Source of the DNA: a phage
DNA: 64,000 nt
Sequence record: PZ452596.1
Strand: one strand, 5' to 3'
In this document: piece after piece, positions 4,340 through 58,452 of the stretch
How the letters are laid out: each line of letters begins with the position of its first letter
Numbering within the stretch: position 1 is the first letter of the stretch
Notes under the pieces: generated by a model
Database searches by the model: none
What the model saw: only the letters and a program-made list of their open reading frames with translations
Told to the model about the DNA's origin: nothing
Made by a program: the position numbers and the translations under genes

Positions 4340-6022
4340 TTAAACCATTACAGTAAATCGACCAACTTTCTTCATTTGAAGATGCTGACCATATGCTTGC
4401 GGGTCATGGTCTCTATGTGAAATAACAAAAACATTAGTATTTTTTAAACTATCTAAAATAGTTGAAATAGCTTTTACACCTTCAACGTCGGTCGCTGAAT
4501 CAAAAACTTCATCAAGAATTAGTGTGTTTATTTTAACACCTGAAACTTTTTCAGCAATATCACGCCAAGTAAATAAAAGAGCAATATCAATTCGTGCTTT
4601 TTCACCTTGACTGAATGAAGCATAACTAAAATCTTCACGACCACGGGATTTAATTGTCTCATTAAATTCTTCATCTAATGTAAACACATAATCCGCTTCC
4701 ATTATTTTAAGATAATGGTTAATCTGCTTATTAAATAATGGAATGTACTTTTTAATAATAGCACCTTTAATACCAGAATCTTTGAGCATATCAGTCAAAA
4801 TTCCTCGGTGGTATTTTTCCATTACTAAATTAGTTTTTGTCTTAACAATTTTATCAAGTTCTTCTTGAAGCAATGCTATTTCATCAGCGTGGTCAATAAA
4901 CTCAGAAGATGCTTTTTCTATAGCCGCTTTAACTTTTTTAGCTTTATCTACCGTCGTGATTAGAGATTGCTTTTTATTGCGAATATCATTTGCCAACGAC
5001 TGTTGGGTTTTAATATTATCTCGGTATTCATCAACAAGAACTTTTAAATTATCACGATGCGTTGAAAGCTGTTCAAATGAATGTGTGCATTCAGAAACTT
5101 TATCTTTAATTTTAGAAACAACTTTATCACCGGAACTTAATTGTGACAAACAGGTTGGGCATAATCCACCTTCGTGATACATATTAATGACTTTATTATA
5201 CGAGTCAATTTTTGATTTAATTAAAACTGCTTCTTGACCGATTTTATTAAATGCATCAGTCGGGTCTTCATCCAAAACAATATTAACTAATCTTTCATTA
5301 GCTTCTTCTATTTCCGATTTTAGCGTTCTAGCTTCTTTTGCCAAATCATCATACATATTTTGAAGACGTGTAAGGTTGTCACCCGTTAATTTTTTCTGGC
5401 GTTCAACGTTATCATTATATATTTTAATTTGTTGGATAATACTATCTTTTTTAACATCAAGCACTTGGTTTTGTGAATTTAATTCACGTATTAGTGCTTT
5501 ATTAAGCTTATCCATTTCAGCTAATGTTCCTACCTCGAGCAGGTCTTCCACAAGCTTTCTTCGCGCAGGGGTCGACAAACCCATGAAAGGGGTATACCCT
5601 GCTGTACCAAGGACAACAATCTGCTTGAAACTGGCATATGACATTCCGATAAGCTGTTCAAATTCTGCTTGGAAATCTTTACTGCTGGCAGATTCATTAA
5701 GACGTGTACCGTTAACGGTGATTTCGAAAACGTTCGGTTTTTGTCCTCTTTTGATATAGTACTTTTTCTCATCATATTCCATCCACAGTTCAACTAAAAG
5801 TTCTTTCTTATTTGTGCTGTTTATTAATTGGCCTTTCTTTACGTCACGAAATGGTTTGCCAAAAAGCCCAAATGTGATGGCTTCTAACATAGTAGACTTA
5901 CCACCGCCATTTCGGCCAGTAATAAGAGTTTTTTGAACCTTATCTAATTGAATGTCAATAGGATTTCCACCTACTGACATTATATTTTGATACCTAACTC
6001 GGTTTAGTTTAAAATTCTTCAC
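4340..6022 (-). CDS. 46: Recombination endonuclease subunit gp46 (SbcC/Rad50-like ATPase)
   Basis: 560-aa ORF; Walker A GRNGGGKST; apparent GTG start. Confidence 0.9.
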   Translation of the reverse strand: MKNFKLNRVRYQNIMSVGGNPIDIQLDKVQKTLITGRNGGGKSTMLEAITFGLFGKPFRDVKKGQLINSTNKKELLVELWMEYDEKKYYIKRGQKPNVFEITVNGTRLNESASSKDFQAEFEQLIGMSYASFKQIVVLGTAGYTPFMGLSTPARRKLVEDLLEVGTLAEMDKLNKALIRELNSQNQVLDVKKDSIIQQIKIYNDNVERQKKLTGDNLTRLQNMYDDLAKEARTLKSEIEEANERLVNIVLDEDPTDAFNKIGQEAVLIKSKIDSYNKVINMYHEGGLCPTCLSQLSSGDKVVSKIKDKVSECTHSFEQLSTHRDNLKVLVDEYRDNIKTQQSLANDIRNKKQSLITTVDKAKKVKAAIEKASSEFIDHADEIALLQEELDKIVKTKTNLVMEKYHRGILTDMLKDSGIKGAIIKKYIPLFNKQINHYLKIMEADYVFTLDEEFNETIKSRGREDFSYASFSQGEKARIDIALLFTWRDIAEKVSGVKINTLILDEVFDSATDVEGVKAISTILDSLKNTNVFVISHRDHDPQAYGQHLQMKKVGRFTVMV

Positions 6023-25806: not shown

Positions 25807-26328
25807 TTATCCTTTCATTGAAGGCGTAACAGTTGTTAAATACTTAATCATAGCTTCAGCTTCTGATTTTGATAATGAAATTTCTCCATTGTTTTGACGA
25901 ATAGAAATAAAATCCGGATGACGGTCACCACCAGCTTTTAAAACACACATATAAGTATCAACTTCGCCTTCAATATTTGAAATGATTGAAGCAGTTCCAC
26001 ATGAATGTGGTTTTTGATAAATCAATACAGCTTTTCTTCCGCCATTTGACTGCTCATAGGCTTTTAATACATCAAGCAAATCAGTTCTTTTATCAATAGC
26101 TAAAATGTTATTTTCATCTTCAATGTTAAATCCTTCGGATACTTCATAAAGTGTCACCCATAAATCGCCAATATCAATAACAGCATTTACGTTTCCACGG
26201 CTTTCAAGAGCATGACAAATTTTCTTGATTTCGTCATAACTCATTTTAATAATATCATCTCCTTGAATAAGAAAGATGTCATTTTTAAATTCAACACGAA
26301 TTAAACCACTTCCACTTGAAATAAACAT
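25807..26328 (-). CDS. Hypothetical protein, 173 aa (paralog of 26335..26877)
   Basis: C-terminus AEAMIKYLTTVTPSMKG resembles neighbour's AIALKTYLDSVIPTMISK. Confidence 0.55.
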   Translation of the reverse strand: MFISSGSGLIRVEFKNDIFLIQGDDIIKMSYDEIKKICHALESRGNVNAVIDIGDLWVTLYEVSEGFNIEDENNILAIDKRTDLLDVLKAYEQSNGGRKAVLIYQKPHSCGTASIISNIEGEVDTYMCVLKAGGDRHPDFISIRQNNGEISLSKSEAEAMIKYLTTVTPSMKG

Positions 26329-26334
26329 ATTTCC

Positions 26335-26877
26335 TCACTTTGAAATCATAGTTGGAATGACAGAATCAAGATAAGTCTTTAGCGCAATAGCTTCGTCTTT
26401 GGTAAATGTGACAATATGCGCTCGAGAATCATCAATTTGGCGAACAAGTACGACATCGCCATCTTCATAAGAAGTCTTGACATCCAAAGTCGTAGTATAA
26501 TTTGCAGCTACTGGATTAATAATGTTAGCGCCGCGGTCTTTAGCCCATTGAAGTTTAGCCTTTTCGGATGTTTCGACTGTTTCAGATTCCAAGAATTCTT
26601 TCACCTTGACAACGAATGTTGCCCAATTGTTGATAGAAAGACACATAAATTCAGTTTCAATATTACCGCCGTAAAGGCCACGATAAAAACGAACTTGGAG
26701 GTCGTCTGTAATATTAGTTACACCGGTAACTCCTGAGGGAGCATAAGATAAAATCGCAGCCAGTTCCATAGGAAGAATAGTAATACTATCGTCTTCCTGC
26801 GTCAGAACGTATACATTACCACGTTTTTCGATAACCAGGTCACCGAACAAATCAGTTGTTTCAATTACAGCTTTCAT
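26335..26877 (-). CDS. Hypothetical protein, 180 aa (paralog of 25807..26328)
   Basis: Track ORF (TTG start) trimmed to ATG MKAVIETTDLF. Confidence 0.55.
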   Translation of the reverse strand: MKAVIETTDLFGDLVIEKRGNVYVLTQEDDSITILPMELAAILSYAPSGVTGVTNITDDLQVRFYRGLYGGNIETEFMCLSINNWATFVVKVKEFLESETVETSEKAKLQWAKDRGANIINPVAANYTTTLDVKTSYEDGDVVLVRQIDDSRAHIVTFTKDEAIALKTYLDSVIPTMISK

Positions 26878-26878
26878 A

Positions 26879-27064
26879 TTATTTACCAATTAAAGTTTCA
26901 ATATAAGAATCAAGATTTACTTTAGCTTCTTCCATAAGAGTTTTGTATTTAATCTTGTTAGCATGTCCGGAGAAAGCTGATTCATCAATAACTGTTGCTG
27001 TATGAACAGCTTTGCTATATGTTTCAATTAATTCTCTTAATTTAAAAGCCTGCTCACTTGTCAT
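26879..27064 (-). CDS. Small helical protein family member, 61 aa (MTSEQAFKLRELIETYSKAVH...)
   Basis: Track ORF 26879..27067 (GTG) with ATG one codon in; shares the M-x-S/T-x-EQ start and DLxxYxE end with five other small ORFs. Confidence 0.5.
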   Translation of the reverse strand: MTSEQAFKLRELIETYSKAVHTATVIDESAFSGHANKIKYKTLMEEAKVNLDSYIETLIGK

Positions 27065-27168
27065 CACATACTCCTCTGAATCATATCAATAATGTTGTTC
27101 ACCAGATTATAAGTAAACATTGGGTAATTATATTGAATCATCACATACACAACAAACAAAACTTTCAT
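27064..27168 (-). CDS. Small hydrophobic peptide ORF, 34 aa
   Basis: Hand-translated MKVLFVVYVMIQYNYPMFTYNLVNNIIDMIQRSM; RBS AAGGAGAAGAGA just downstream of the early promoter. Confidence 0.3.
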   Translation of the reverse strand: MKVLFVVYVMIQYNYPMFTYNLVNNIIDMIQRSM

Positions 27169-27196
27169 TCTCTTCTCCTTGGCAGCTGACAAGATT

Positions 27197-27225
27197 ACTA
27201 TACCATAACCTTGCCAACTTGTAAA
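27197..27225 (-). promoter_or_regulatory. T4-type early promoter (GTTTACA - 17 nt - TATAGT)
   Basis: Seen on the minus strand; heads the operon ending at the 24301-24331 terminator. Confidence 0.5.
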
Positions 27226-27228
27226 CCA

Positions 27229-27402
27229 TTAAATGATGTTTTCAATAAAATTCTGAAGCTTTGTGTGAGCATCAACCATGATTTTCAATTCTTCTTTAGC
27301 GAAAGCTGTACCTCTTTCCCGAGAAGAACACTCATAGTCAGAAACTGCATTAGCATATTCTTCAATTAGTTTCATTAAAAACATCTGCTTTTCAGTTTTC
27401 AT
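27229..27402 (-). CDS. Small helical protein family member, 57 aa (MKTEKQMFLMKLIEEYANAV...)
   Basis: Hand-translated; ATGA overlap with the upstream stop. Confidence 0.4.
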   Translation of the reverse strand: MKTEKQMFLMKLIEEYANAVSDYECSSRERGTAFAKEELKIMVDAHTKLQNFIENII

Positions 27403-27586
27403 TATTCCACCTAATCATTTCAAGATATTGAACTAACTTAGCTTTAGATTTATCCAAATCCTTTTTAGCTGCTTCTATACCGTCGTATGAATATCCTTCA
27501 CAATGCTCAACTGCTAATTGATATGAATCTATTTCAACATCACGTGCTAATTTAATGATTTTTTCAAACTGTTCACATGTTAGCAT
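27392..27586 (-). CDS. Small helical protein family member, 64 aa
   Basis: Track ORF MLTCEQFEKIIKLARDV... Confidence 0.5.
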   Translation of the reverse strand: MLTCEQFEKIIKLARDVEIDSYQLAVEHCEGYSYDGIEAAKKDLDKSKAKLVQYLEMIRWNNEN

Positions 27587-27588
27587 AC

Positions 27589-27792
27589 TTAAACTCTCGT
27601 ATTATGATCGATAATTTCATCAAGAAACATATCTAACGCTTCTATAGCATTATCAACTTTAGCTTCAAGTTCATCAATACCTTTATTTGCAATGCCTGAC
27701 GAAAACCAAGCAAAGTCACTAAGTTCCTCGTCTGCTTTACGAATTAAAGCTACTAATTCCTTAATTTTATCCGCTTGTTCGATACTAATCAT
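27589..27792 (-). CDS. Small helical protein family member, 67 aa
   Basis: Track ORF trimmed to [17 protein letters not shown]; TAATG coupling. Confidence 0.5.
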   Translation of the reverse strand: MISIEQADKIKELVALIRKADEELSDFAWFSSGIANKGIDELEAKVDNAIEALDMFLDEIIDHNTRV

Positions 27793-27977
27793 TATTCCAC
27801 CACATATGAAAGAGAGAATATTGCACACGCCATGTGAGTTGCAACTTCATCACACATATTATAACGTTTCTTAAGAAGTTCTACAAGTTCTTCACTAGTA
27901 ACTTCATCCATGTCGACGAAAAAATCACCATTAATGATGACGTAAATATTTCCTTCTTGATTGAGTGCTTCAATTTT
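27792..27977 (-). CDS. Hypothetical protein, 61 aa
   Basis: Track ORF trimmed to [10 protein letters not shown] (RBS GAGGAG downstream of early promoter). Confidence 0.5.
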
Positions 27978-27997
27978 CATGATGTTCTCCTCTTTAT

Positions 27998-28026
27998 CCG
28001 ATAGTTGTATAGTATCACAGCTCAAA
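27998..28026 (-). promoter_or_regulatory. T4-type early promoter with conserved leader module
   Basis: TTTACT - 17 nt - TACTAT, then ACAACTATC. Confidence 0.5.
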
Positions 28027-28040
28027 CGGAAAGTAAACCG

Positions 28041-28070
28041 GTAAAATGAAAAAAGTCTCCCGAAGGAGAC
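28041..28070 (-). terminator. Rho-independent terminator after the rI.-1-like gene
   Basis: GUCUCC-UUCG-GGAGAC hairpin followed by UUUUUUCAUUUU. Confidence 0.55.
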
Positions 28071-28075
28071 TAATG

Positions 28076-28462
28076 TTATTCGAGGGAAAGAAGATACTTA
28101 CTCTGGTAAAACATCCCAGTAATATCATCTATCGTGCTTTGAATGGCTGGAGGCATTTCTTTATAAATGCTGTTAGATTGGTCTAGTATGCGATCAATCA
28201 TTTTAATTGTGTCGGTAGGAAGTTTACTGGCATCTGGAATTGAAGGTGTGTATTTTCTACCAGAATACCCCAAATATTGCTCACCAAATTTATCAATCAA
28301 ATCTGGTAACTCGGAGAAAATAAAATCGTATGCTTTGTGTCTAGCATAACTTTTAGTTTCAAAATGTGCAGAATGAAAATAAGCTTGTGCAGCCATTAAT
28401 AAACCTAAGTATTCATCTGCCTTTGAAGGTTTTCCACTTTGTGAAAAGTCGCTGAATTTCAT
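28076..28462 (-). CDS. Hypothetical protein (T4 rI.-1 position), 128 aa
   Basis: Track ORF; 4-nt overlap with rI stop. Confidence 0.55.
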
Positions 28463-28752
28463 TCAGTCTCCAATTTAATGTTCATAATTCTAGCGTATGA
28501 TTGTGCCATCTCCGCGCCTCGTTCTATACATTCAAAATCAGAAGAGCACGGGTCATTTTTATAGGTCGTTCTCATAAAACTATAGAATTGTTCAGACGAT
28601 TCTACGCTTTTATTTTCAAAAAGCATATAAACGTGCCTAATACCAGATTCCATAAATTTATCAAAATGAGGATCGACATTCGCTTCAATTGGTGGAGATA
28701 AAGCAAATGACAATCCTAGCATGGCAAATAGTGCCGTTGCTTTTAAGGCCAT
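28459..28752 (-). CDS. rI: Lysis-inhibition regulator RI (periplasmic antiholin)
   Basis: 97-aa ORF MALKATALFAMLGLSFALSPPIEANVDPHFDKFMESGIRHVYML...; matches remembered T4 RI. Confidence 0.85.
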   Translation of the reverse strand: MALKATALFAMLGLSFALSPPIEANVDPHFDKFMESGIRHVYMLFENKSVESSEQFYSFMRTTYKNDPCSSDFECIERGAEMAQSYARIMNIKLETE

Positions 28753-28764
28753 AAAGGCCTCCTA

Positions 28765-28977
28765 TCATTTTTGTCCTGTATTTACTTTATGCCGATGCAC
28801 GGCCTTAACTTTATCAAGGTATTTTTCAAAATTTCGCAATCTAGTATAGTCTGCCGGAGATTGGTTGAGTGATACTTCTCGACGCAAAGCTGAAATGATA
28901 TTTCCAACTTCCCTACGAATTTCATCTAATTGAAGAACAGTAAGATTGCGAAGTTGCTTTTCAGTTAATTGTAGCAT
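28765..28977 (-). CDS. Hypothetical protein (rI.1 position), 70 aa
   Basis: Track ORF. Confidence 0.5.
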
Positions 28978-29019
28978 ATATACCCCTTTAGTTAGATAAA
29001 CCTATTTATAACTTTTGCA

Positions 29020-29601
29020 CTAACCGAGCTTTTTAGTTAATTCATTCCAATGTTTTCTACACAAAGAAACATAAATTTCATCGCCAATACAGATTTGATT
29101 ACCCTCTTTAACTGGTGTTCCATCTTCCATTAATCGAGCTGTCATAATCGCTTTTTTACCACAGTGACAAACTGCTTTTAGTTCAATAAGTTTATCTGCA
29201 ATCGCCAAAAGTTCTTTAGAACCTTCAAATAATTTTCCAGCGAAATCAGTCCTTAATCCATAAGCCATAACAGGAACATTATATGTATCAACAATTCGGC
29301 TCAATTGATGCACTTGTTCAGTTTTTAAAAACTGAGCTTCATCTACAAATACACAATGAATATCTTTTTGTGCTTCAGCCCATTTATAGAACTCGAAAAT
29401 ATCCATATCATCTGTAATAATATTCGCTTCCTGCTTAATTCCAATGCGAGAAACGACTTCACAGACAGAATCGCGAGTATCAATAGCAGGCTTAAGAACT
29501 AATACGCTCATTCCACGTTCTTTATAATTATGTGCAGCAGTCAAAAGAGAAGCAGATTTTCCAGCATTCATTGCTGCATAAGTAAAAATTAAACTCGCCA
29601 T
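29020..29601 (-). CDS. tk: Thymidine kinase
   Basis: 193-aa ORF with P-loop MNAGKSASLL and C-terminal Cys cluster. Confidence 0.85.
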   Translation of the reverse strand: MASLIFTYAAMNAGKSASLLTAAHNYKERGMSVLVLKPAIDTRDSVCEVVSRIGIKQEANIITDDMDIFEFYKWAEAQKDIHCVFVDEAQFLKTEQVHQLSRIVDTYNVPVMAYGLRTDFAGKLFEGSKELLAIADKLIELKAVCHCGKKAIMTARLMEDGTPVKEGNQICIGDEIYVSLCRKHWNELTKKLG

Positions 29602-29602
29602 C

Positions 29603-29791
29603 TTAGTCCTTAGTTAAATTTTCTAAATATGTTTCTAAATCATTTTCAGCTTTATCGATAGATTTTACTAATTCGTAATATGTTTCGGCATCTCCATAAT
29701 CAGAAGATAATTCAAAAGACAAATCCTTTTCTAAACTAATAATTTCACCAACTAAAAATAATATTTCGTTCTTTTGTTCGCGAGTAATCAT
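29603..29791 (-). CDS. Small helical protein family member, 62 aa
   Basis: Track ORF MITREQKNEILFLVGEI... Confidence 0.5.
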   Translation of the reverse strand: MITREQKNEILFLVGEIISLEKDLSFELSSDYGDAETYYELVKSIDKAENDLETYLENLTKD

Positions 29792-29973
29792 AAGGAATTT
29801 ATATAATTAATAAGTTCTTGTTCTTTATTATCGAATTCTTTAGAAAGTTCTTCGTACTCGTTTGCATTAAAAGGACCGCATTCATCACAAACTTTTTCCA
29901 ATTCACTGTTTTTATCCATAACTTCGTGGATAAGAGAAAAGAGTTTGTCTTTTTGTTCTTTGCTTAGGCTCAT
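29788..29973 (-). CDS. Small helical protein family member, 61 aa
   Basis: Track ORF MSLSKEQKDKLFSLIHEV... Confidence 0.5.
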   Translation of the reverse strand: MSLSKEQKDKLFSLIHEVMDKNSELEKVCDECGPFNANEYEELSKEFDNKEQELINYINSL

Positions 29974-30143
29974 ATATTAATTTCCAGAAGTTTTAAAATA
30001 ATTCGCTTTTGCTTAAATATTTCAATAGTTAAATGATCAGTATCTTTTTGACCAATTCCAATGGCAAAACCTTTATTAGCAGCGAGTTCAATTAAATTAT
30101 CAAGTTCACGTAACACTTCGTACTGTAACTCATAACTATTCAT
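29970..30143 (-). CDS. Small hypothetical ORF, 57 aa
   Basis: Hand-translated MNSYELQYEVLRELDNLIELAANKGF...; ATGA overlaps at both ends. Confidence 0.35.
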   Translation of the reverse strand: MNSYELQYEVLRELDNLIELAANKGFAIGIGQKDTDHLTIEIFKQKRIILKLLEINI

Positions 30144-30367
30144 TTCGGTTTACCTTCTTTAACGAAATCTGGATAAGGATAAAATCCCGAATAAAATCCT
30201 TCACCTTTATGATTGATGCATCCTTTATTAGAACAATAGCACCAATAATCGAAATCACAAGCCATTTCATCGTTGCATAAAGCAAAAACAACCGGCCACT
30301 TACACTTTTCGCAGTGGGCATTTTTAAGAATACTAGTTTGGCTCATAACCATGTAACCTTTAAGCAA
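30140..30367 (-). CDS. Cysteine-rich small protein, 75 aa
   Basis: Track ORF with HCEKCKW...CNDEMACDFDYWCYCSNKGC. Confidence 0.5.
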   Translation of the reverse strand: MLKGYMVMSQTSILKNAHCEKCKWPVVFALCNDEMACDFDYWCYCSNKGCINHKGEGFYSGFYPYPDFVKEGKPK

Positions 30368-30555
30368 TATTCTTCTACATGTTGTTTACGACCTTTCTTA
30401 TCAATAAAGGTATATTCAACGAATGTTCCAATGTAGTCTTTATCTACATCATGTGGACTATTAATTGGACATTTAGTACGGCAAATGCGTTCCCATTGAC
30501 GAATAATTACTGCCTTATTCTTTGGGTCATACGGATGTGGATAATGTATATTCAT
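30343..30555 (-). CDS. Hypothetical protein, 70 aa
   Basis: Track ORF 30343..30570 trimmed to MNIHYPHPYD; ATGA overlap with the macro-domain gene stop. Confidence 0.45.
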   Translation of the reverse strand: MNIHYPHPYDPKNKAVIIRQWERICRTKCPINSPHDVDKDYIGTFVEYTFIDKKGRKQHVEEYCLKVTWL

Positions 30556-31019
30556 AATAACGGTTCCCAATCAACAATCACAATTTCTAATTTAGAAGAA
30601 TATGTATCTAAAATCCCCTCAATAATATCCCAGTTCCCTTTACCTATGCCTGCACCAATCCTAGGCATATAGATTGTGGGTTTAATCAGTTTATTTTCAC
30701 CAAACTCATTTAATTCTAACATACAATTCATTAAAGCGGAATACTCAAAATTTGGCCCTGGTTGAAATTGAGTATAAAGGTTGAAGCAATACGCTTTATG
30801 AGTCCTAAAGTATTTTTCATAGACTGAGTAAGAACCGAGTTTAGTTACATCACCCCATTCAGTCTGTAATTTATCAGCTTCCAAAATTTTAGGGAAAGCT
30901 TTGGTTAATTGACCCGCTACGCCTGAACCCATAGTATGAAAACAATTGCATCCATGCGCAATATTTTTACCTTCAGCGAAAAGGGCGACAATATCGCCCT
31001 TGATATATTTTACAATCAT
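30552..31019 (-). CDS. Macro-domain-like protein, 155 aa
   Basis: GDIVALFAEGKNIAHGCNCFHTMGSGVAGQL and YMPRIGAGIGKG resemble macro-domain signature blocks. Confidence 0.5.
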   Translation of the reverse strand: MIVKYIKGDIVALFAEGKNIAHGCNCFHTMGSGVAGQLTKAFPKILEADKLQTEWGDVTKLGSYSVYEKYFRTHKAYCFNLYTQFQPGPNFEYSALMNCMLELNEFGENKLIKPTIYMPRIGAGIGKGNWDIIEGILDTYSSKLEIVIVDWEPLL

Positions 31020-32429: not shown

Positions 32430-32708
32430 TTATTCTTTAAATCTGATCAATTTATTCATAGACTTTGAAACTTCTGCACGAACCTCATGTAGATTTTTGA
32501 GCTGTTCAAGACGCTGCGTATAGTAAGCAATTTCATCTTCTTCGAGACAGTCCTGCGAATCTTCTTTAAGATAACGTGCATAGTCCTGAAAAGCGTTACG
32601 GATTACTTCCTGGAAGTCATCAAGACTTTGAATTTTCTTAGGAGCAGCAGATACACGACGAGGGGCAGTATAATACTCATAACCAAACCCTGCGCTTAAT
32701 TGAGCCAT
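32430..32708 (-). CDS. Hypothetical protein, 92 aa
   Basis: Track ORF 32430..32750 trimmed to [13 protein letters not shown]. Confidence 0.45.
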
Positions 32709-32974
32709 TAGTATTTTTCCTCTGGTTGGAACACTGCACGACAAGCCCACATACTGGCTTCTTTGAGTTTCGTTTTAGCAATAGTTAACTGATCGAGGCT
32801 TTCGGAGTAATTCTTCGCGAGTTCATCATCTTCACAGCTATCAAATGCTTCCCAAAATTCATCGTATAAAGCATCAAAGATAAGTCCTAAACGAACTTCA
32901 GCGTCTTTAATAGCATTTACTTTACCGATTTTTTCGTCGGTATGTGGCTTATAACCTTTAATATCTTCAATCAT
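32708..32974 (-). CDS. Acb2-like (T4 Vs.4-type) candidate anti-CBASS nucleotide sponge, 88 aa
   Basis: Track ORF trimmed to [15 protein letters not shown] (RBS GAGGAA); C-terminal [10 protein letters not shown] resembles the Acb2 family; position in the vs cluster. Confidence 0.45.
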
Positions 32975-42450: not shown

Positions 42451-42636
42451 CTATTCACCTTTAGAAATTTTATCCATAACGATAGCGATTAAACCAATTA
42501 AAAATGCTACTACAAGTGAAAAAACATTTTCTGCTGTAGTCAATAATCCGCATATAAATCCAACAAACATTGAAAAACTAAAAGCAGAAGCAGAAATTGC
42601 AATAGCAACATTTCGAATTAATTCACAACGTTTCAT
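42451..42636 (-). CDS. Small membrane protein, 61 aa
   Basis: Track ORF, hydrophobic; directly downstream of early promoter. Confidence 0.5.
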   Translation of the reverse strand: MKRCELIRNVAIAISASAFSFSMFVGFICGLLTTAENVFSLVVAFLIGLIAIVMDKISKGE

Positions 42637-42664
42637 TTTATTCTCCTCAGTAGTTGATAGGGTA

Positions 42665-42693
42665 ATAGTATCACTACTAAAACCCTATGTAAA
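42665..42693 (-). promoter_or_regulatory. T4-type early promoter with conserved leader module
   Basis: GTTTACA - 17 nt - TACTAT, then CCCTATCAACTACTGAGGAGAATAAAATG. Confidence 0.5.
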
Positions 42694-56647: not shown

Positions 56648-58452
56648 TGAAACAAAATATTAATATCGGTAATGTTGTTGATGATGGTACCGGTGACTAC
56701 CTGCGTAAAGGTGGTATAAAAATAAATGAAAACTTTGATGAACTTTATTATGAACTTGGTGATGGAGATGTTCCATATTCAGCCGGTGCCTGGAAAACTT
56801 ATAATGCTTCATCTGGACAAACACTAACGGCAGAATGGGGAAAATCATATGCCATTAATACTTCGTCTGGAAGAGTAACTCTACAACTTCCTAAAGGAAC
56901 TGTTAATGATTACAACAAGGTAATTAGAGCTAGAGACGTATTCGCTACATGGAACATCAATCCAGTTACTTTAGTAGCTGCTTCTGGAGATACAATTAAA
57001 GGGTCGTCATCGTCAGTTGAAATTAATATTCAATTTAGTGATTTAGAACTCGTTTATTGCGCTCCAGGACGCTGGGAGTATGTCAAAAATAAGCAAATTG
57101 ATAAAATTATCAGTTCAGACATTAGTAATGTAGCTCGTAAAGAATTTTTAGTCGAAGTTCAAGGGCAAACAGACTTTTTAGATGTTTTTAATGGAACTAG
57201 TTATAATGTCAATAACATCAGAGTAAAACATCGTGGTAACGAATTGTATTACGGCGATGTATTTAGCGAAAACAGTGACTTTGGCTCTCCTGGAGAAAAT
57301 GAAGGCGAATTAGTTCCTCTTGATGGATTTAACATTCGATTAAGACAGCCTTGTAATATTGGTGACACTGTTCAAATTGAAACATTTATGGATGGTGTAT
57401 CACAATGGAGAAGTTCATATACAAGACGCCAAATAAAAGTACTGGATTCAAAACTAACATCAAAGACTTCTTTAGAAGGAAGCATTTATGTTACTGATTT
57501 ATCAGCGATGAAATCAATTCCATTTTCTGCATTTGGATTAATTCCTGGTGAACCCATTAATCCTAACTCTCTTGAGGTTCGTTTTAATGGAATTTTACAG
57601 CAGCAGGCTGGAACAGCTGGATATCCTCTGTTTTTGTGTGAAGGCGCTAATTCAGATACGCAAGAAGGATGTATATCTCTTGGTGGCGAATGGAAAGAAT
57701 CAAACACCGATTATTCTATAGAATATGAAGACGGAAAACCTATCAGTCTTTTATTTGATAGAAAATTTGAATCCGGTGACATTATCGTTATAACATGGTT
57801 CAATAATGATTTAGGAACTCTTTTAGAAAAAGATGACATCATTGAATTGACTGATGACCGTTATGTTAGTAAAGGATCATCTACTGAAGTTACTGGTGAT
57901 GTGGCCTTAACAGATTTTGATAAAATCGGTTGGCCAAATGTTGAAAAAGTTGATTCTTATACTAGAACGTATAATTCAATATCATCTATTTTCGACAGCA
58001 TTTATCCTGTTGGTTCAATTTATGAAAATGCTATAAACCCAAATAATCCGGTGACTTATATGGGATTTGGTTCATGGAAATTATTTGGTAAAGGGCAGGT
58101 TTTAGTAGGATGGAATGATGATGTTACAGATCCAAACTTTGCATTAAACAATAATGATTTAGATTCTAGCGGAAATCCTTCACATACCGCCGGTGGAACA
58201 GTTGGTACAACATCAGTAACGCTTGAAAACGCAAATCTTCCTGCGACTAAAACTGATGAAAGAGTTTTAATTGAAGACGAAAATGGATCAGTTATTATTG
58301 GAGGATGTCAATATGACCCAGACGAAACTGGTCCTATATATACAAAATATCGTGAAGACTACGCAACAACAAACTCTTCACATACTCCTCCTACTAATAT
58401 TAGTAATATTCAACCGTCTATTACTGTATACCGTTGGATAAGGATTGCATAA
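56647..58452 (+). CDS. 10: Baseplate wedge protein gp10
   Basis: 601-aa ORF; TAATG coupling with gene 11. Confidence 0.9.

What the first reader, a model, noticed from the sequence alone, without database searches (positions are those of the whole stretch)
26879..29973. Family of at least six small (57-67 aa) helical proteins in two ATGA/TAATG-coupled clusters around rI and tk
ORFs 26879..27064, 27229..27402, 27392..27586, 27589..27792, 29603..29791 and 29788..29973 share an N-terminal M-x-(S/T)-x-EQ-x3-(I/L)-x2-L pattern and a C-terminal (D/N)-L-(D/E)-x-Y-(I/L)-(E/Q) pattern. Several fall below the 60-aa track cutoff or needed start correction. Expanded small-protein families in phage early regions are often host-takeover or anti-defence inhibitors that mimic or bind host factors.
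Basis: seen in the sequence. Interest (0 to 1): 0.45.

Follow-up and report, generated by a model that had tools for sequence, protein, structure and literature searches.

The report
Six-copy small helical-hairpin phage gene family
Six tiny early genes flanking the thymidine kinase gene of T4-like phage RB27 are true, diverged copies of one two-helix protein family that databases already list as DUF7438; T4 makes four of its five counterparts as protein, needs none of the five in the lab, and what they do is unknown.

Summary
The window is phage RB27 (Tequatrovirus). All six minus-strand ORFs match Pfam DUF7438 (PF24219) over its full length (E 1e-15 to 3e-19). Each also beats 1000 shuffles of itself against a profile built from the other five.

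They correspond to T4 mobD.2a, mobD.3, mobD.4, tk.1 and tk.2, plus one gene that T4 lacks. AlphaFold2 predicts a two-helix hairpin for the two members modelled (pLDDT 90-93). All six lineages are under purifying selection (median dN/dS 0.07-0.30).

Published T4 data put the transcripts early. They detect MobD.3, MobD.4, Tk.1 and Tk.2 as proteins, and find no fitness cost when any of the five genes is knocked down.

The family is narrow: 43 clusters among 1.84 billion representative proteins, and every locus examined is T4-like. Copy number near tk ranges from 0 to 6, with a frameshifted copy in T4, a tk.2/tk.1 chimera, and divergent alleles swapped in beside an unchanged tk.

The conserved residues form the hairpin core, while the hairpin tips are specific to each lineage. 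The most likely role is a set of small early protein binders acting on host or defence factors; this is inferred, not shown.

The family is already catalogued and its function is unknown. Interest is modest.

The parts
26879..27064 (-). m1: 61-aa DUF7438 member (RB27_102). No orthologue in T4. RefSeq and PHROG 4859 label it 'helicase loader', which nothing here supports.
   Evidence: - Pfam PF24219, E 1e-15, residues 1-58; PHROG 4859.
- GAGGAG lies upstream, and the ATG overlaps the mobD.2 stop as TGATG.
- No similarity to gp59 and no NCBIfam hit.
- In T4, mobD.2 abuts mobD.1 with no room for this gene.
27229..27402 (-). m2: 57-aa DUF7438 member, the intact form of T4 mobD.2a.
   Evidence: - Pfam E 4.9e-15; PHROG 2758.
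- Median dN/dS 0.07.
- The T4 copy is split across two reading frames and gave no protein signal.
27392..27586 (-). m3: 64-aa DUF7438 member, orthologue of T4 mobD.3.
   Evidence: - Pfam E 1.4e-16; PHROG 653.
- The hairpin tip AVEHCEGYSY-x-GIE is largely kept in orthologues at 63-71% identity.
- T4 MobD.3 is classed early RNA and early protein.
27589..27792 (-). m4: 67-aa DUF7438 member, orthologue of T4 mobD.4. Not annotated in RefSeq RB27.
   Evidence: - Pfam E 1.8e-15.
- RB27 annotation has a gap between mobD.3 and mobD.5 here.
- AF2 predicts a hairpin, H4-30 and H36-66, pLDDT 89.8.
- TAATG overlap with mobD.5.
- T4 MobD.4 is classed early RNA and early protein.
29603..29791 (-). m5: 62-aa DUF7438 member, orthologue of T4 tk.1. 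It ends 1 nt before the tk start codon.
   Evidence: - Pfam E 4.6e-15; PHROG 653.
- Junctions.
- T4 Tk.1 is classed early RNA and middle protein.
29788..29973 (-). m6: 61-aa DUF7438 member, orthologue of T4 tk.2. RB27 RefSeq annotates only 43 aa.
   Evidence: - Pfam E 3.3e-19, residues 3-61.
- AF2 predicts a hairpin, H5-30 and H37-60, pLDDT 92.7.
- T4 tk.2 is annotated at 186 nt.
- ATGA overlaps on both sides.
28009..28038 (-). Promoter-like site of the T4 early type (GTTTAC, 16 nt, TGATACTAT). It would drive mobD.5-m4-m3-m2.
   Evidence: - Motif found; sequence.
- A mobD.5 promoter transcript, present 3 min after infection and insensitive to RegB, is reported for T4 (PMC1702504).
- The early-promoter consensus itself is from my own knowledge.
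27197..27226 (-). Promoter-like site of the T4 early type (GTTTACA, then TGGTATAGT). It would drive mobD.2-m1 and the two y05I genes.
   Evidence: - Best promoter-scan hit in the region, 10 of 12 matches with TG; also found.
- By name and position it would correspond to T4 early promoters Pe57954/Pe57.9, reported in PMC6024815. T4 mobD.2 ends at 57932.
28054..28071 (-). Terminator-like hairpin followed by a T-run. It lies after rI.-1 and separates the tk-rI unit from the mobD.5 unit.
   Evidence: 7-bp stem with 4 G-C pairs, followed by TTTTTTCATTT.

Best explanation
The six ORFs are real, translated, early-expressed paralogues of one family restricted to T4-like phages (Pfam DUF7438; T4 mobD.2a, mobD.3, mobD.4, tk.1, tk.2, plus one gene that T4 lacks).

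Each is predicted to fold into a soluble antiparallel two-helix hairpin of about 60 residues. That fold is modelled for two members and assumed for the rest by homology. The family-wide conserved residues form the heptad core and the N-terminal helix cap, so what all members share is a scaffold.

The loop and the residues next to it differ between paralogues. In several lineages they are conserved within the lineage.

My inferred mechanism is that each paralogue is a small, stoichiometric protein binder made in the first minutes of infection, probably as a dimer or higher oligomer. Each would dock onto a different host or defence protein, or possibly a phage protein, and block or retune it. 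This benefit would show only in some hosts or conditions. The phage population keeps the set diverse through tandem duplication, loss, recombination between paralogues and allele replacement.

Shown: the homology and the purifying selection. Predicted: the fold. Shown in T4 only: expression timing, translation and dispensability. Inferred: the binding role, the oligomeric state and the kind of target.
For: **Homology.** Pfam full-length hits, PHROGs and the leave-one-out shuffle test.

**Fold.** Hairpin at pLDDT 92.7 and 89.8.

**Scaffold.** Conserved hydrophobic columns follow a 3-4 spacing on both helices, with a conserved Ala on each helix, and T-x-E-Q sits at the helix-1 N-terminus.

**Real genes.** Median dN/dS is 0.07-0.30 in all six lineages.

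**Expression.**
- Early-type promoter motifs lie upstream.
- T4 has a mobD.5 promoter transcript (PMC1702504).
- T4 early promoters Pe57954/Pe57.9 are reported in PMC6024815.
- In T4, mobD.3 and mobD.4 are early RNA and early protein; tk.1 and tk.2 are early RNA and middle protein (PMC9697503 supplement).

**Dispensability.**
- A T4 nrdC.11-mobD.3 deletion is viable (PMC9825161).
- All five T4 genes are classed 'Not Fit' under CRISPRi-ART knockdown (PMC11879866 supplement).

**Accessory-gene behaviour.**
- Only 43 clusters match among 1.84e9 representatives.
- There are 0 to 6 copies near tk across genera.
- T4 mobD.2a is frameshifted.
- P0034 is a tk.2/tk.1 chimera.
- Some loci carry a tk.2 allele only 54-56% identical to RB27's beside a 99-100% identical tk.

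**Lineage-specific tips.**
- CEGYSY-x-GIE is kept in the mobD.3 orthologues.
- A motif close to W-E-x-S-x-W-[DS]-S-[ST] recurs in most tk-upstream genes of the more distant loci.
- The middle third evolves faster than the ends in m4 (pN/pS 0.46 vs 0.19) and m6 (0.63 vs 0.27).

**Neighbourhood.** Acb2 (vs.4) and the macro-domain gene tk.4 lie nearby.
Against: - No target, interaction, toxicity or defence-escape phenotype is on record. Searches of the open literature found none, and the genes are listed as 'unknown function'.
- A two-helix hairpin is a generic fold. Foldseek found nothing at E <= 1e-3 in the PDB or BFVD. The fold therefore says little about function.
- In m3 and m5 the middle is more conserved than the ends. 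'Hypervariable tip' is not a family-wide rule.
- Tight coupling to tk, kept across genera, could point to a role in phage nucleotide metabolism instead.
- 'Not Fit' under knockdown could also reflect redundancy among paralogues rather than conditional use.
Confidence: 0.45

Rival explanations
1. They act on the phage's own metabolism. As small accessory subunits or assembly factors, they would tune thymidine kinase or the T4 dNTP-synthesising enzymes (or lysis-inhibition proteins), which is why one or two copies sit translationally coupled just upstream of tk.
For: - The position immediately upstream of tk is kept in Tequatrovirus, Mosigvirus, Gaprivervirus, Jiaodavirus and unclassified contigs of about 170 kb.
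- m5 ends 1 nt before the tk start.
- T4 tk.1, tk.2 and tk share one expression class, early RNA and middle protein.
Against: - Many T4-like phages with a good tk have no copy nearby: Karamvirus, Krischvirus, a Slopek-like Klebsiella phage, Serratia 4S and Aeromonas 44RR.
- Four of the six RB27 copies lie in separate transcription units behind their own early-type promoters.
- The tk-adjacent allele can be replaced by one only 54-56% identical while Tk stays 99-100% identical. That argues against a co-evolved Tk partner.
Confidence: 0.15
2. They are oligomeric sponges. Several hairpins would assemble into a ring or bundle whose interfaces trap an immune signalling nucleotide, as the hairpin-containing Acb2 and Tad1 proteins do, with different paralogues trapping different signals.
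For: - The proteins are small, helical, early and dispensable.
- Acb2 (vs.4, PF24729 'Acb2/Tad1 hairpin domain') is encoded 2.7 kb upstream in the same early region.
- Neighbouring hydrophobic columns 14/15 and 58/59 give a face wider than a simple hairpin core would need, which hints at oligomerisation.
Against: - No sequence similarity to Acb2 (hhalign probability 0.3%), and no PF24729 hit.
- Acb2, Tad1 and Tad2 structures are not among the listed Foldseek PDB matches, of which only the top 50 of 187 are shown.
- Family-wide conservation is confined to core positions. No conserved basic or aromatic pocket is visible.
- Most members are strongly acidic, with net charge down to -10.5, which is unfavourable for binding nucleotides.
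Confidence: 0.08
3. The shared pattern is chance or a composition effect in AT-rich DNA, and some of the sub-60-aa ORFs are not genes.
For: - The ORFs are short, the region is about 34% G+C, and similar-sized ORFs occur on the opposite strand.
- Only three alignment columns are invariant among the six.
Against: - Pfam E-values of 1e-15 to 3e-19.
- 0 of 1000 shuffles reach the real leave-one-out score for any member.
- dN/dS is well below 1 in the proposed frames.
- Orthologues are kept across genera.
- Four T4 orthologues are detected by mass spectrometry.
Confidence: 0.01

Closest known systems
Pfam DUF7438 (PF24219); PHROGs 653, 2758 and 4859; T4 genes mobD.2a, mobD.3, mobD.4, tk.1, tk.2
   Same: - Direct membership: full-length profile hits for all six ORFs.
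- Same gene order as T4.
- Same expression class by orthology.
   Different: - RB27 carries a sixth copy (m1) that T4 lacks, and an intact mobD.2a where T4's copy is frameshifted.
- PHROGs splits the family into three groups, while Pfam keeps it as one.
T4 PseT.1 family (PF26888)
   Same: - Same N-terminal M-[IT]-[ST]-x-x-Q start and the same C-terminal L-H-x-Y-I-x-S-L ending.
- The profile-profile alignment runs end to end: hhalign probability 86.5%, E 4.6e-6.
- It is also a small early-region gene.
   Different: - About 12 extra residues in the middle, including a conserved Pro-Pro.
- Catalogued as a separate Pfam family. The local Pfam scan returned no family at all for it.
- It lies outside this window.
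Acb2 / Tad1 hairpin-domain sponges (PF24729; T4 Vs.4)
   Same: - Small, helical and early.
- Tad1 and Acb2 are dispensable accessory proteins (from my own knowledge).
- Acb2 is encoded in the same early region of RB27.
   Different: - No detectable sequence relationship.
- Acb2 is larger (88 aa here).
- No evidence of nucleotide binding for DUF7438.
Generic helical-hairpin proteins found by fold search (Rop, FrmR/CsoR, Tsi2)
   Same: Same two-helix antiparallel architecture, with query TM-scores of 0.6-0.86. Several of these work as dimers or higher oligomers (from my own knowledge).
   Different: All matches have E > 0.8 and 6-22% identity. This is fold-level resemblance only and gives no basis for transferring function.

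Membership tests
Pfam DUF7438 (PF24219) | Whole-protein score above the curated gathering cut-off (25 bits) | tested here: met
   The six ORFs score 56.1-69.4 bits.
Pfam DUF7438 (PF24219) | The match covers the whole 57-position model, meaning a single-domain protein of about 60 aa | tested here: met
   Profile positions 1-57 of 57 are matched in all six ORFs.
Pfam DUF7438 (PF24219) | Two-helix hairpin fold shared by members | tested here: met
   AF2 models of m6 (H5-30, H37-60; pLDDT 92.7) and m4 (H4-30, H36-66; pLDDT 89.8). The other four were not modelled.
Replicative helicase loader (T4 gp59 or DnaC type), the label RefSeq and PHROG 4859 give to m1 | Sequence or profile similarity to a known helicase loader | tested here: not met
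   - BLASTP of m1 against RB27 gp59 gives E >= 0.9.
- No loader family appears in Pfam or NCBIfam.
- At 61 aa, m1 is too small for either loader fold (from my own knowledge).
MobD molybdopterin-guanine dinucleotide biosynthesis protein, the label RefSeq gives to T4 mobD.4 and its orthologues | Match to a molybdenum-cofactor biosynthesis family | tested here: not met
   No such hit in Pfam or NCBIfam. The name most likely comes from confusion with the T4 gene symbol mobD.4, where mobD is a homing endonuclease.
Acb2/Tad1 hairpin sponges (PF24729) | Profile match to the Acb2/Tad1 hairpin domain | tested here: not met
   No PF24729 hit for any member. hhalign of the family profile against RB27 Vs.4 gives probability 0.3%.
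Anti-defence or host-takeover inhibitor (a functional class) | Binds and inhibits a host or defence protein, or rescues phage from a defence system | not testable with these tools
   Only indirect evidence exists: early expression, dispensability, narrow range and copy-number flux. The PADLOC scan gave no meaningful hit.

The most novel reading that the evidence does not exclude
DUF7438 is a scaffolded binder family in an arms race. One conserved hairpin frame would display interchangeable tips, each neutralising a different host immune or stress protein. Paralogue recombination and allele replacement in T-even phages would be how new specificities spread. pseT.1 would be a further, remodelled member.
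Probability: 0.25. Interest if true: 0.6.

Novelty: already known. Interest (0 to 1): 0.3.

Why it matters
T4 is the best-studied large lytic phage, yet about half of its genes have no known function. Here five T4 genes (six in RB27) reduce to one scaffold, so a single structural and interaction study could annotate them together.

If the paralogues target different host or defence proteins, they would form a compact natural library of small inhibitors. They would also explain why this accessory region keeps changing among T-even phages.

There are practical points for databases:
- RB27 RefSeq misses one member and truncates another.
- The circulating names 'helicase loader' and 'MobD molybdopterin...' find no support here and appear spurious.

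Tried and rejected
**No functional lead from databases.**
- Sequence search of the PDB gave nothing below E 0.03.
- Foldseek against the PDB and BFVD gave nothing at E <= 1e-3. The hits were generic hairpins and other uncharacterised T4-like small proteins.
- PADLOC and NCBIfam gave nothing meaningful.

**Other candidate members in or near the window, rejected.**
- The 57-aa ORF at 29970-30143 next to m6: no DUF7438 hit, and hhalign probability 0.9%.
- rI.1 and mobD.5: other PHROGs families.
- The ORF at 42454-42684: E 0.01 with the six-sequence profile only, not recovered with the broader profile or Pfam.
- The gene directly upstream of tk in Karamvirus EnC07 is a zinc-binding tk.3 homologue, not a family member.

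**Ideas dropped.**
- A relationship to Acb2.
- A uniform DNA-mimic role, because net charge runs from -1.3 to -10.5.
- A CxxC motif at the tip of tk.2, which is absent from other tk.2 alleles.

**Literature.** Searches for DUF7438, mobD.x and tk.x found no functional study. The HIDEN-SEQ preprint and the main text of the CRISPRi-ART paper do not mention these genes.


Full report
**Identity of the window**

The region 26800-30200 is 100% identical to phage RB27 (NC_025448, Tequatrovirus) and 96-98% identical to hundreds of T4-like phages. All genes discussed here lie on the minus strand.

In T4 nomenclature the order, from high to low coordinates, is:
- tk.4, tk.3, a 57-aa ORF, tk.2 (m6), tk.1 (m5), tk;
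- rI.1, rI, rI.-1;
- mobD.5, mobD.4 (m4), mobD.3 (m3), mobD.2a (m2), mobD.2;
- m1, then two mobD.1-like genes.

**Checking the observation**

- Every one of the six ORFs matches Pfam PF24219 (DUF7438) across the whole 57-position model, at 56-69 bits against a cut-off of 25 and E 1e-15 to 3e-19. The three neighbouring small ORFs tested alongside do not match.
- PHROGs places the six in groups 653, 2758 and 4859, with cross-hits between the groups.
- Pairwise identity is only 22-36%, but most pairs align co-linearly over nearly the full length. A few pairs give only short hits or none.
- Profiles built from any five members score the sixth at 13-29 bits. The best of 1000 shuffles of that sixth member reaches 9-14 bits.
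m1, m2 and m6 are shifted or differ at the N-terminus, and the C-terminal consensus is L-x-x-[YF]-[ILV]-[END]-x-[LI]. The homology itself is not in doubt.
- Gene junctions are as described: ATGA, TAATG or TGATG overlaps, an 11-nt overlap, or gaps of 1-2 nt.
- The start corrections are right. In addition, RefSeq RB27 omits m4 and truncates tk.2 to 43 aa.

**Number of members**

Six-frame profile scans find six members in the window and six in the whole RB27 genome.

One further candidate lies outside the window: pseT.1 (RB27 132081-132311). It shares both termini and carries about 12 extra residues in the middle. The profile-profile comparison gives 86.5% probability and E 4.6e-6, aligned end to end.

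**What the proteins look like**

- AlphaFold2 predicts a two-helix antiparallel hairpin for tk.2 (H5-30, H37-60; pLDDT 92.7) and for m4 (H4-30, H36-66; pLDDT 89.8).
- Across 33 diverse members, the conserved columns are hydrophobic positions with 3-4 spacing on both helices. There is one conserved Ala on each helix, a T-x-E-Q motif at the start of helix 1, and an S/T before helix 2.
- What the whole family shares is therefore the scaffold.
- The proteins have pI 4.2-6.1 and net charge from -1.3 to -10.5. I see no hydrophobic segment or signal peptide in the sequences; this is by eye, not a tool result.
- There is no solved relative by sequence. Fold searches return only generic hairpins, or other uncharacterised small proteins of T4-like phages, at non-significant E-values.

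**Are they real, expressed genes?**

- Median dN/dS among orthologues is 0.07-0.30 for all six lineages.
- Two promoter-like sites of the T4 early type (GTTTAC...TGnTAnnnT) sit at 28038-28009, upstream of mobD.5, and at 27226-27197, upstream of mobD.2. A terminator-like hairpin lies at 28071-28054.
- T4 literature reports a mobD.5 promoter transcript present 3 min after infection and insensitive to RegB (PMC1702504). It also reports early promoters Pe57954/Pe57.9 (PMC6024815).
- Time-resolved T4 omics class mobD.3 and mobD.4 as early RNA and early protein, and tk.1 and tk.2 as early RNA and middle protein. mobD.2a has early RNA but no protein value (PMC9697503 supplementary files 4 and 6).
- That last point fits my finding that T4 mobD.2a is split across two reading frames.
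- The genes are dispensable in the laboratory. A T4 deletion spanning nrdC.11-mobD.3 is viable (PMC9825161). All five T4 genes are 'Not Fit' under CRISPRi-ART knockdown and are listed with unknown function (PMC11879866 supplement).

**Distribution and dynamics**

An exhaustive profile search of 1.84 billion representative proteins finds only 43 clusters at E <= 1e-3, nearly all 57-67 aa. The hits that carry source names or sit on long contigs come from T4-like phages or from contigs of about 165-173 kb.

| Phage or locus | Copies within 5-12 kb of tk |
|---|---|
| RB27 | 6 |
| T4 | 4 intact + 1 frameshifted |
| Other Tequatrovirus-like loci | 4-5 |
| Mosigvirus | 2-3 |
| Gaprivervirus VR25 | 3 |
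| Jiaodavirus JD18 | 1 |
| Sampled Karamvirus, Krischvirus, Slopek-like, Serratia and Aeromonas phages | 0 |

- One or two copies directly upstream of tk is the most widespread arrangement.
- The mobD-side cluster is absent from the more distant loci sampled, so I read it as a later expansion.
- Recombination is visible in two ways. P0034 from phage UFV-AREG1 is the N-terminal half of tk.2 joined to the C-terminal half of tk.1. Three loci whose Tk is 99-100% identical to RB27's carry a single tk.2 allele only 54-56% identical, with no tk.1.
- Tips are lineage-specific, and in several lineages conserved within the lineage. CEGYSY-x-GIE is kept in the mobD.3 orthologues. A motif close to W-E-x-S-x-W-[DS]-S-[ST] recurs in most tk-upstream genes of the more distant loci.
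- The middle third evolves faster than the ends in m4 and m6, but slower in m3 and m5.

**Most likely mechanism**

Shown: a family restricted to T4-like phages, under purifying selection. Predicted: a two-helix hairpin. Shown in T4: early expression, translation of four members, and dispensability in the lab. Also shown: a high turnover of copies and alleles.

Inferred: each paralogue is a small stoichiometric binder, possibly oligomeric. It would use its lineage-specific surface to block or retune a host, defence or phage protein, with a pay-off only in particular hosts.

The neighbourhood fits an accessory or counter-defence region. Vs.4 is an Acb2/Tad1-hairpin protein at 32708-32974, and Tk.4 is a macro-domain protein at 30552-31019. 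I put this mechanism at about 0.45.

Rivals:
- A role with Tk or dNTP metabolism (0.15). This is weakened by the absence of the family from many phages that have tk, and by allele replacement beside an unchanged tk.
- A nucleotide sponge like Acb2 (0.08). There is no similarity, the proteins are acidic, and no conserved pocket is visible.
- Chance (0.01). Refuted.

**Comparison with what is known**

The six ORFs are members of Pfam DUF7438 and of PHROGs 653, 2758 and 4859, and are orthologues of named T4 genes. The family is therefore already catalogued as 'function unknown'. I found no publication on it in the searchable library.

Two circulating product names find no support:
- 'helicase loader' for m1: no similarity to gp59 and no family hit;
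- 'molybdopterin-guanine dinucleotide biosynthesis protein MobD' for mobD.4: most likely an artefact of the gene symbol.

**Verdict**

The helical-family reading is correct. The anti-defence or host-takeover reading is plausible but untested.

On novelty, the family is already known. The additions here are modest:
- a sixth copy and an intact mobD.2a in RB27;
- one unannotated and one truncated gene model;
- the likely remote link to pseT.1;
- the description of copy-number flux and allele mosaicism.

Interest: 0.3.

Noticed in passing
window 27589-27792 (-) and 29788-29973 (-): RefSeq RB27 (NC_025448) does not annotate the mobD.4 orthologue at all. It also annotates tk.2 as a 43-aa fragment instead of 61 aa. 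Both full-length proteins match Pfam DUF7438 from the first residues.
   Followed up: yes
RB27 genome 132081-132311 (L009:3682-3912, minus strand; outside the window): pseT.1 (76 aa, PF26888) shares the N- and C-terminal motifs of the family and has about 12 extra residues in the middle. hhalign of the two family profiles gives 86.5% probability and E 4.6e-6, aligned end to end. It is probably a remote seventh relative.
   Followed up: partly
L002 (T4 NC_000866) 4997-5178, minus strand: T4 mobD.2a is split by a frameshift: the N-terminal and C-terminal halves match the family profile in different frames. The annotated 38-aa product is therefore a fragment. T4 proteomics gives no protein value for it.
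   Followed up: partly
P0034 (phage UFV-AREG1); loci L018, L020 and L022 upstream of tk: - P0034 is a natural chimera: the N-terminal half of tk.2 joined to the C-terminal half of tk.1.
- In three loci, Tk is 99-100% identical to RB27's, but the single upstream family gene is only 54-56% identical to RB27 tk.2 and tk.1 is missing.
- Both point to recombination and allele replacement within the family.
   Followed up: partly
window 26335-26877 (-) and 25807-26328 (-): Two tandem paralogues of the T4 MobD.1 (y05I-like, 'putative transcription factor') family lie directly downstream of m1. T4 has one such gene here. It also carries the mobD homing endonuclease between nrdC.11 and mobD.1; no endonuclease gene is annotated at that position in RB27.
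   Followed up: partly
window 26879-27064 (-); T4 mobD.4 in L002: Product names that are probably spurious are propagating in RefSeq: 'helicase loader' for m1 (from PHROG 4859) and 'molybdopterin-guanine dinucleotide biosynthesis protein MobD' for mobD.4 orthologues. No profile or pairwise similarity supports either name.
   Followed up: yes
window 32708-32974 (-), 30552-31019 (-), 30140-30352 (-): The same early region encodes three other recognisable genes: an Acb2/Tad1-hairpin protein (vs.4; Pfam E 1e-19), a macro-domain protein (tk.4), and a phage zinc-binding-domain protein (the 70-aa ORF RB27_114; a similarly sized neighbour carries the tk.3 note). This looks like an accessory or counter-defence gene neighbourhood.
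   Followed up: partly
P0141 (117 aa) and P0142 (119 aa), from the representative search: Two longer proteins carry an N-terminal DUF7438-like hairpin fused to extra C-terminal sequence. P0142 matches the profile in two stretches. Their amino-acid composition (rich in R, A and P) suggests a source with higher G+C than T4-like phages. Their genomic context could not be retrieved.
   Followed up: no
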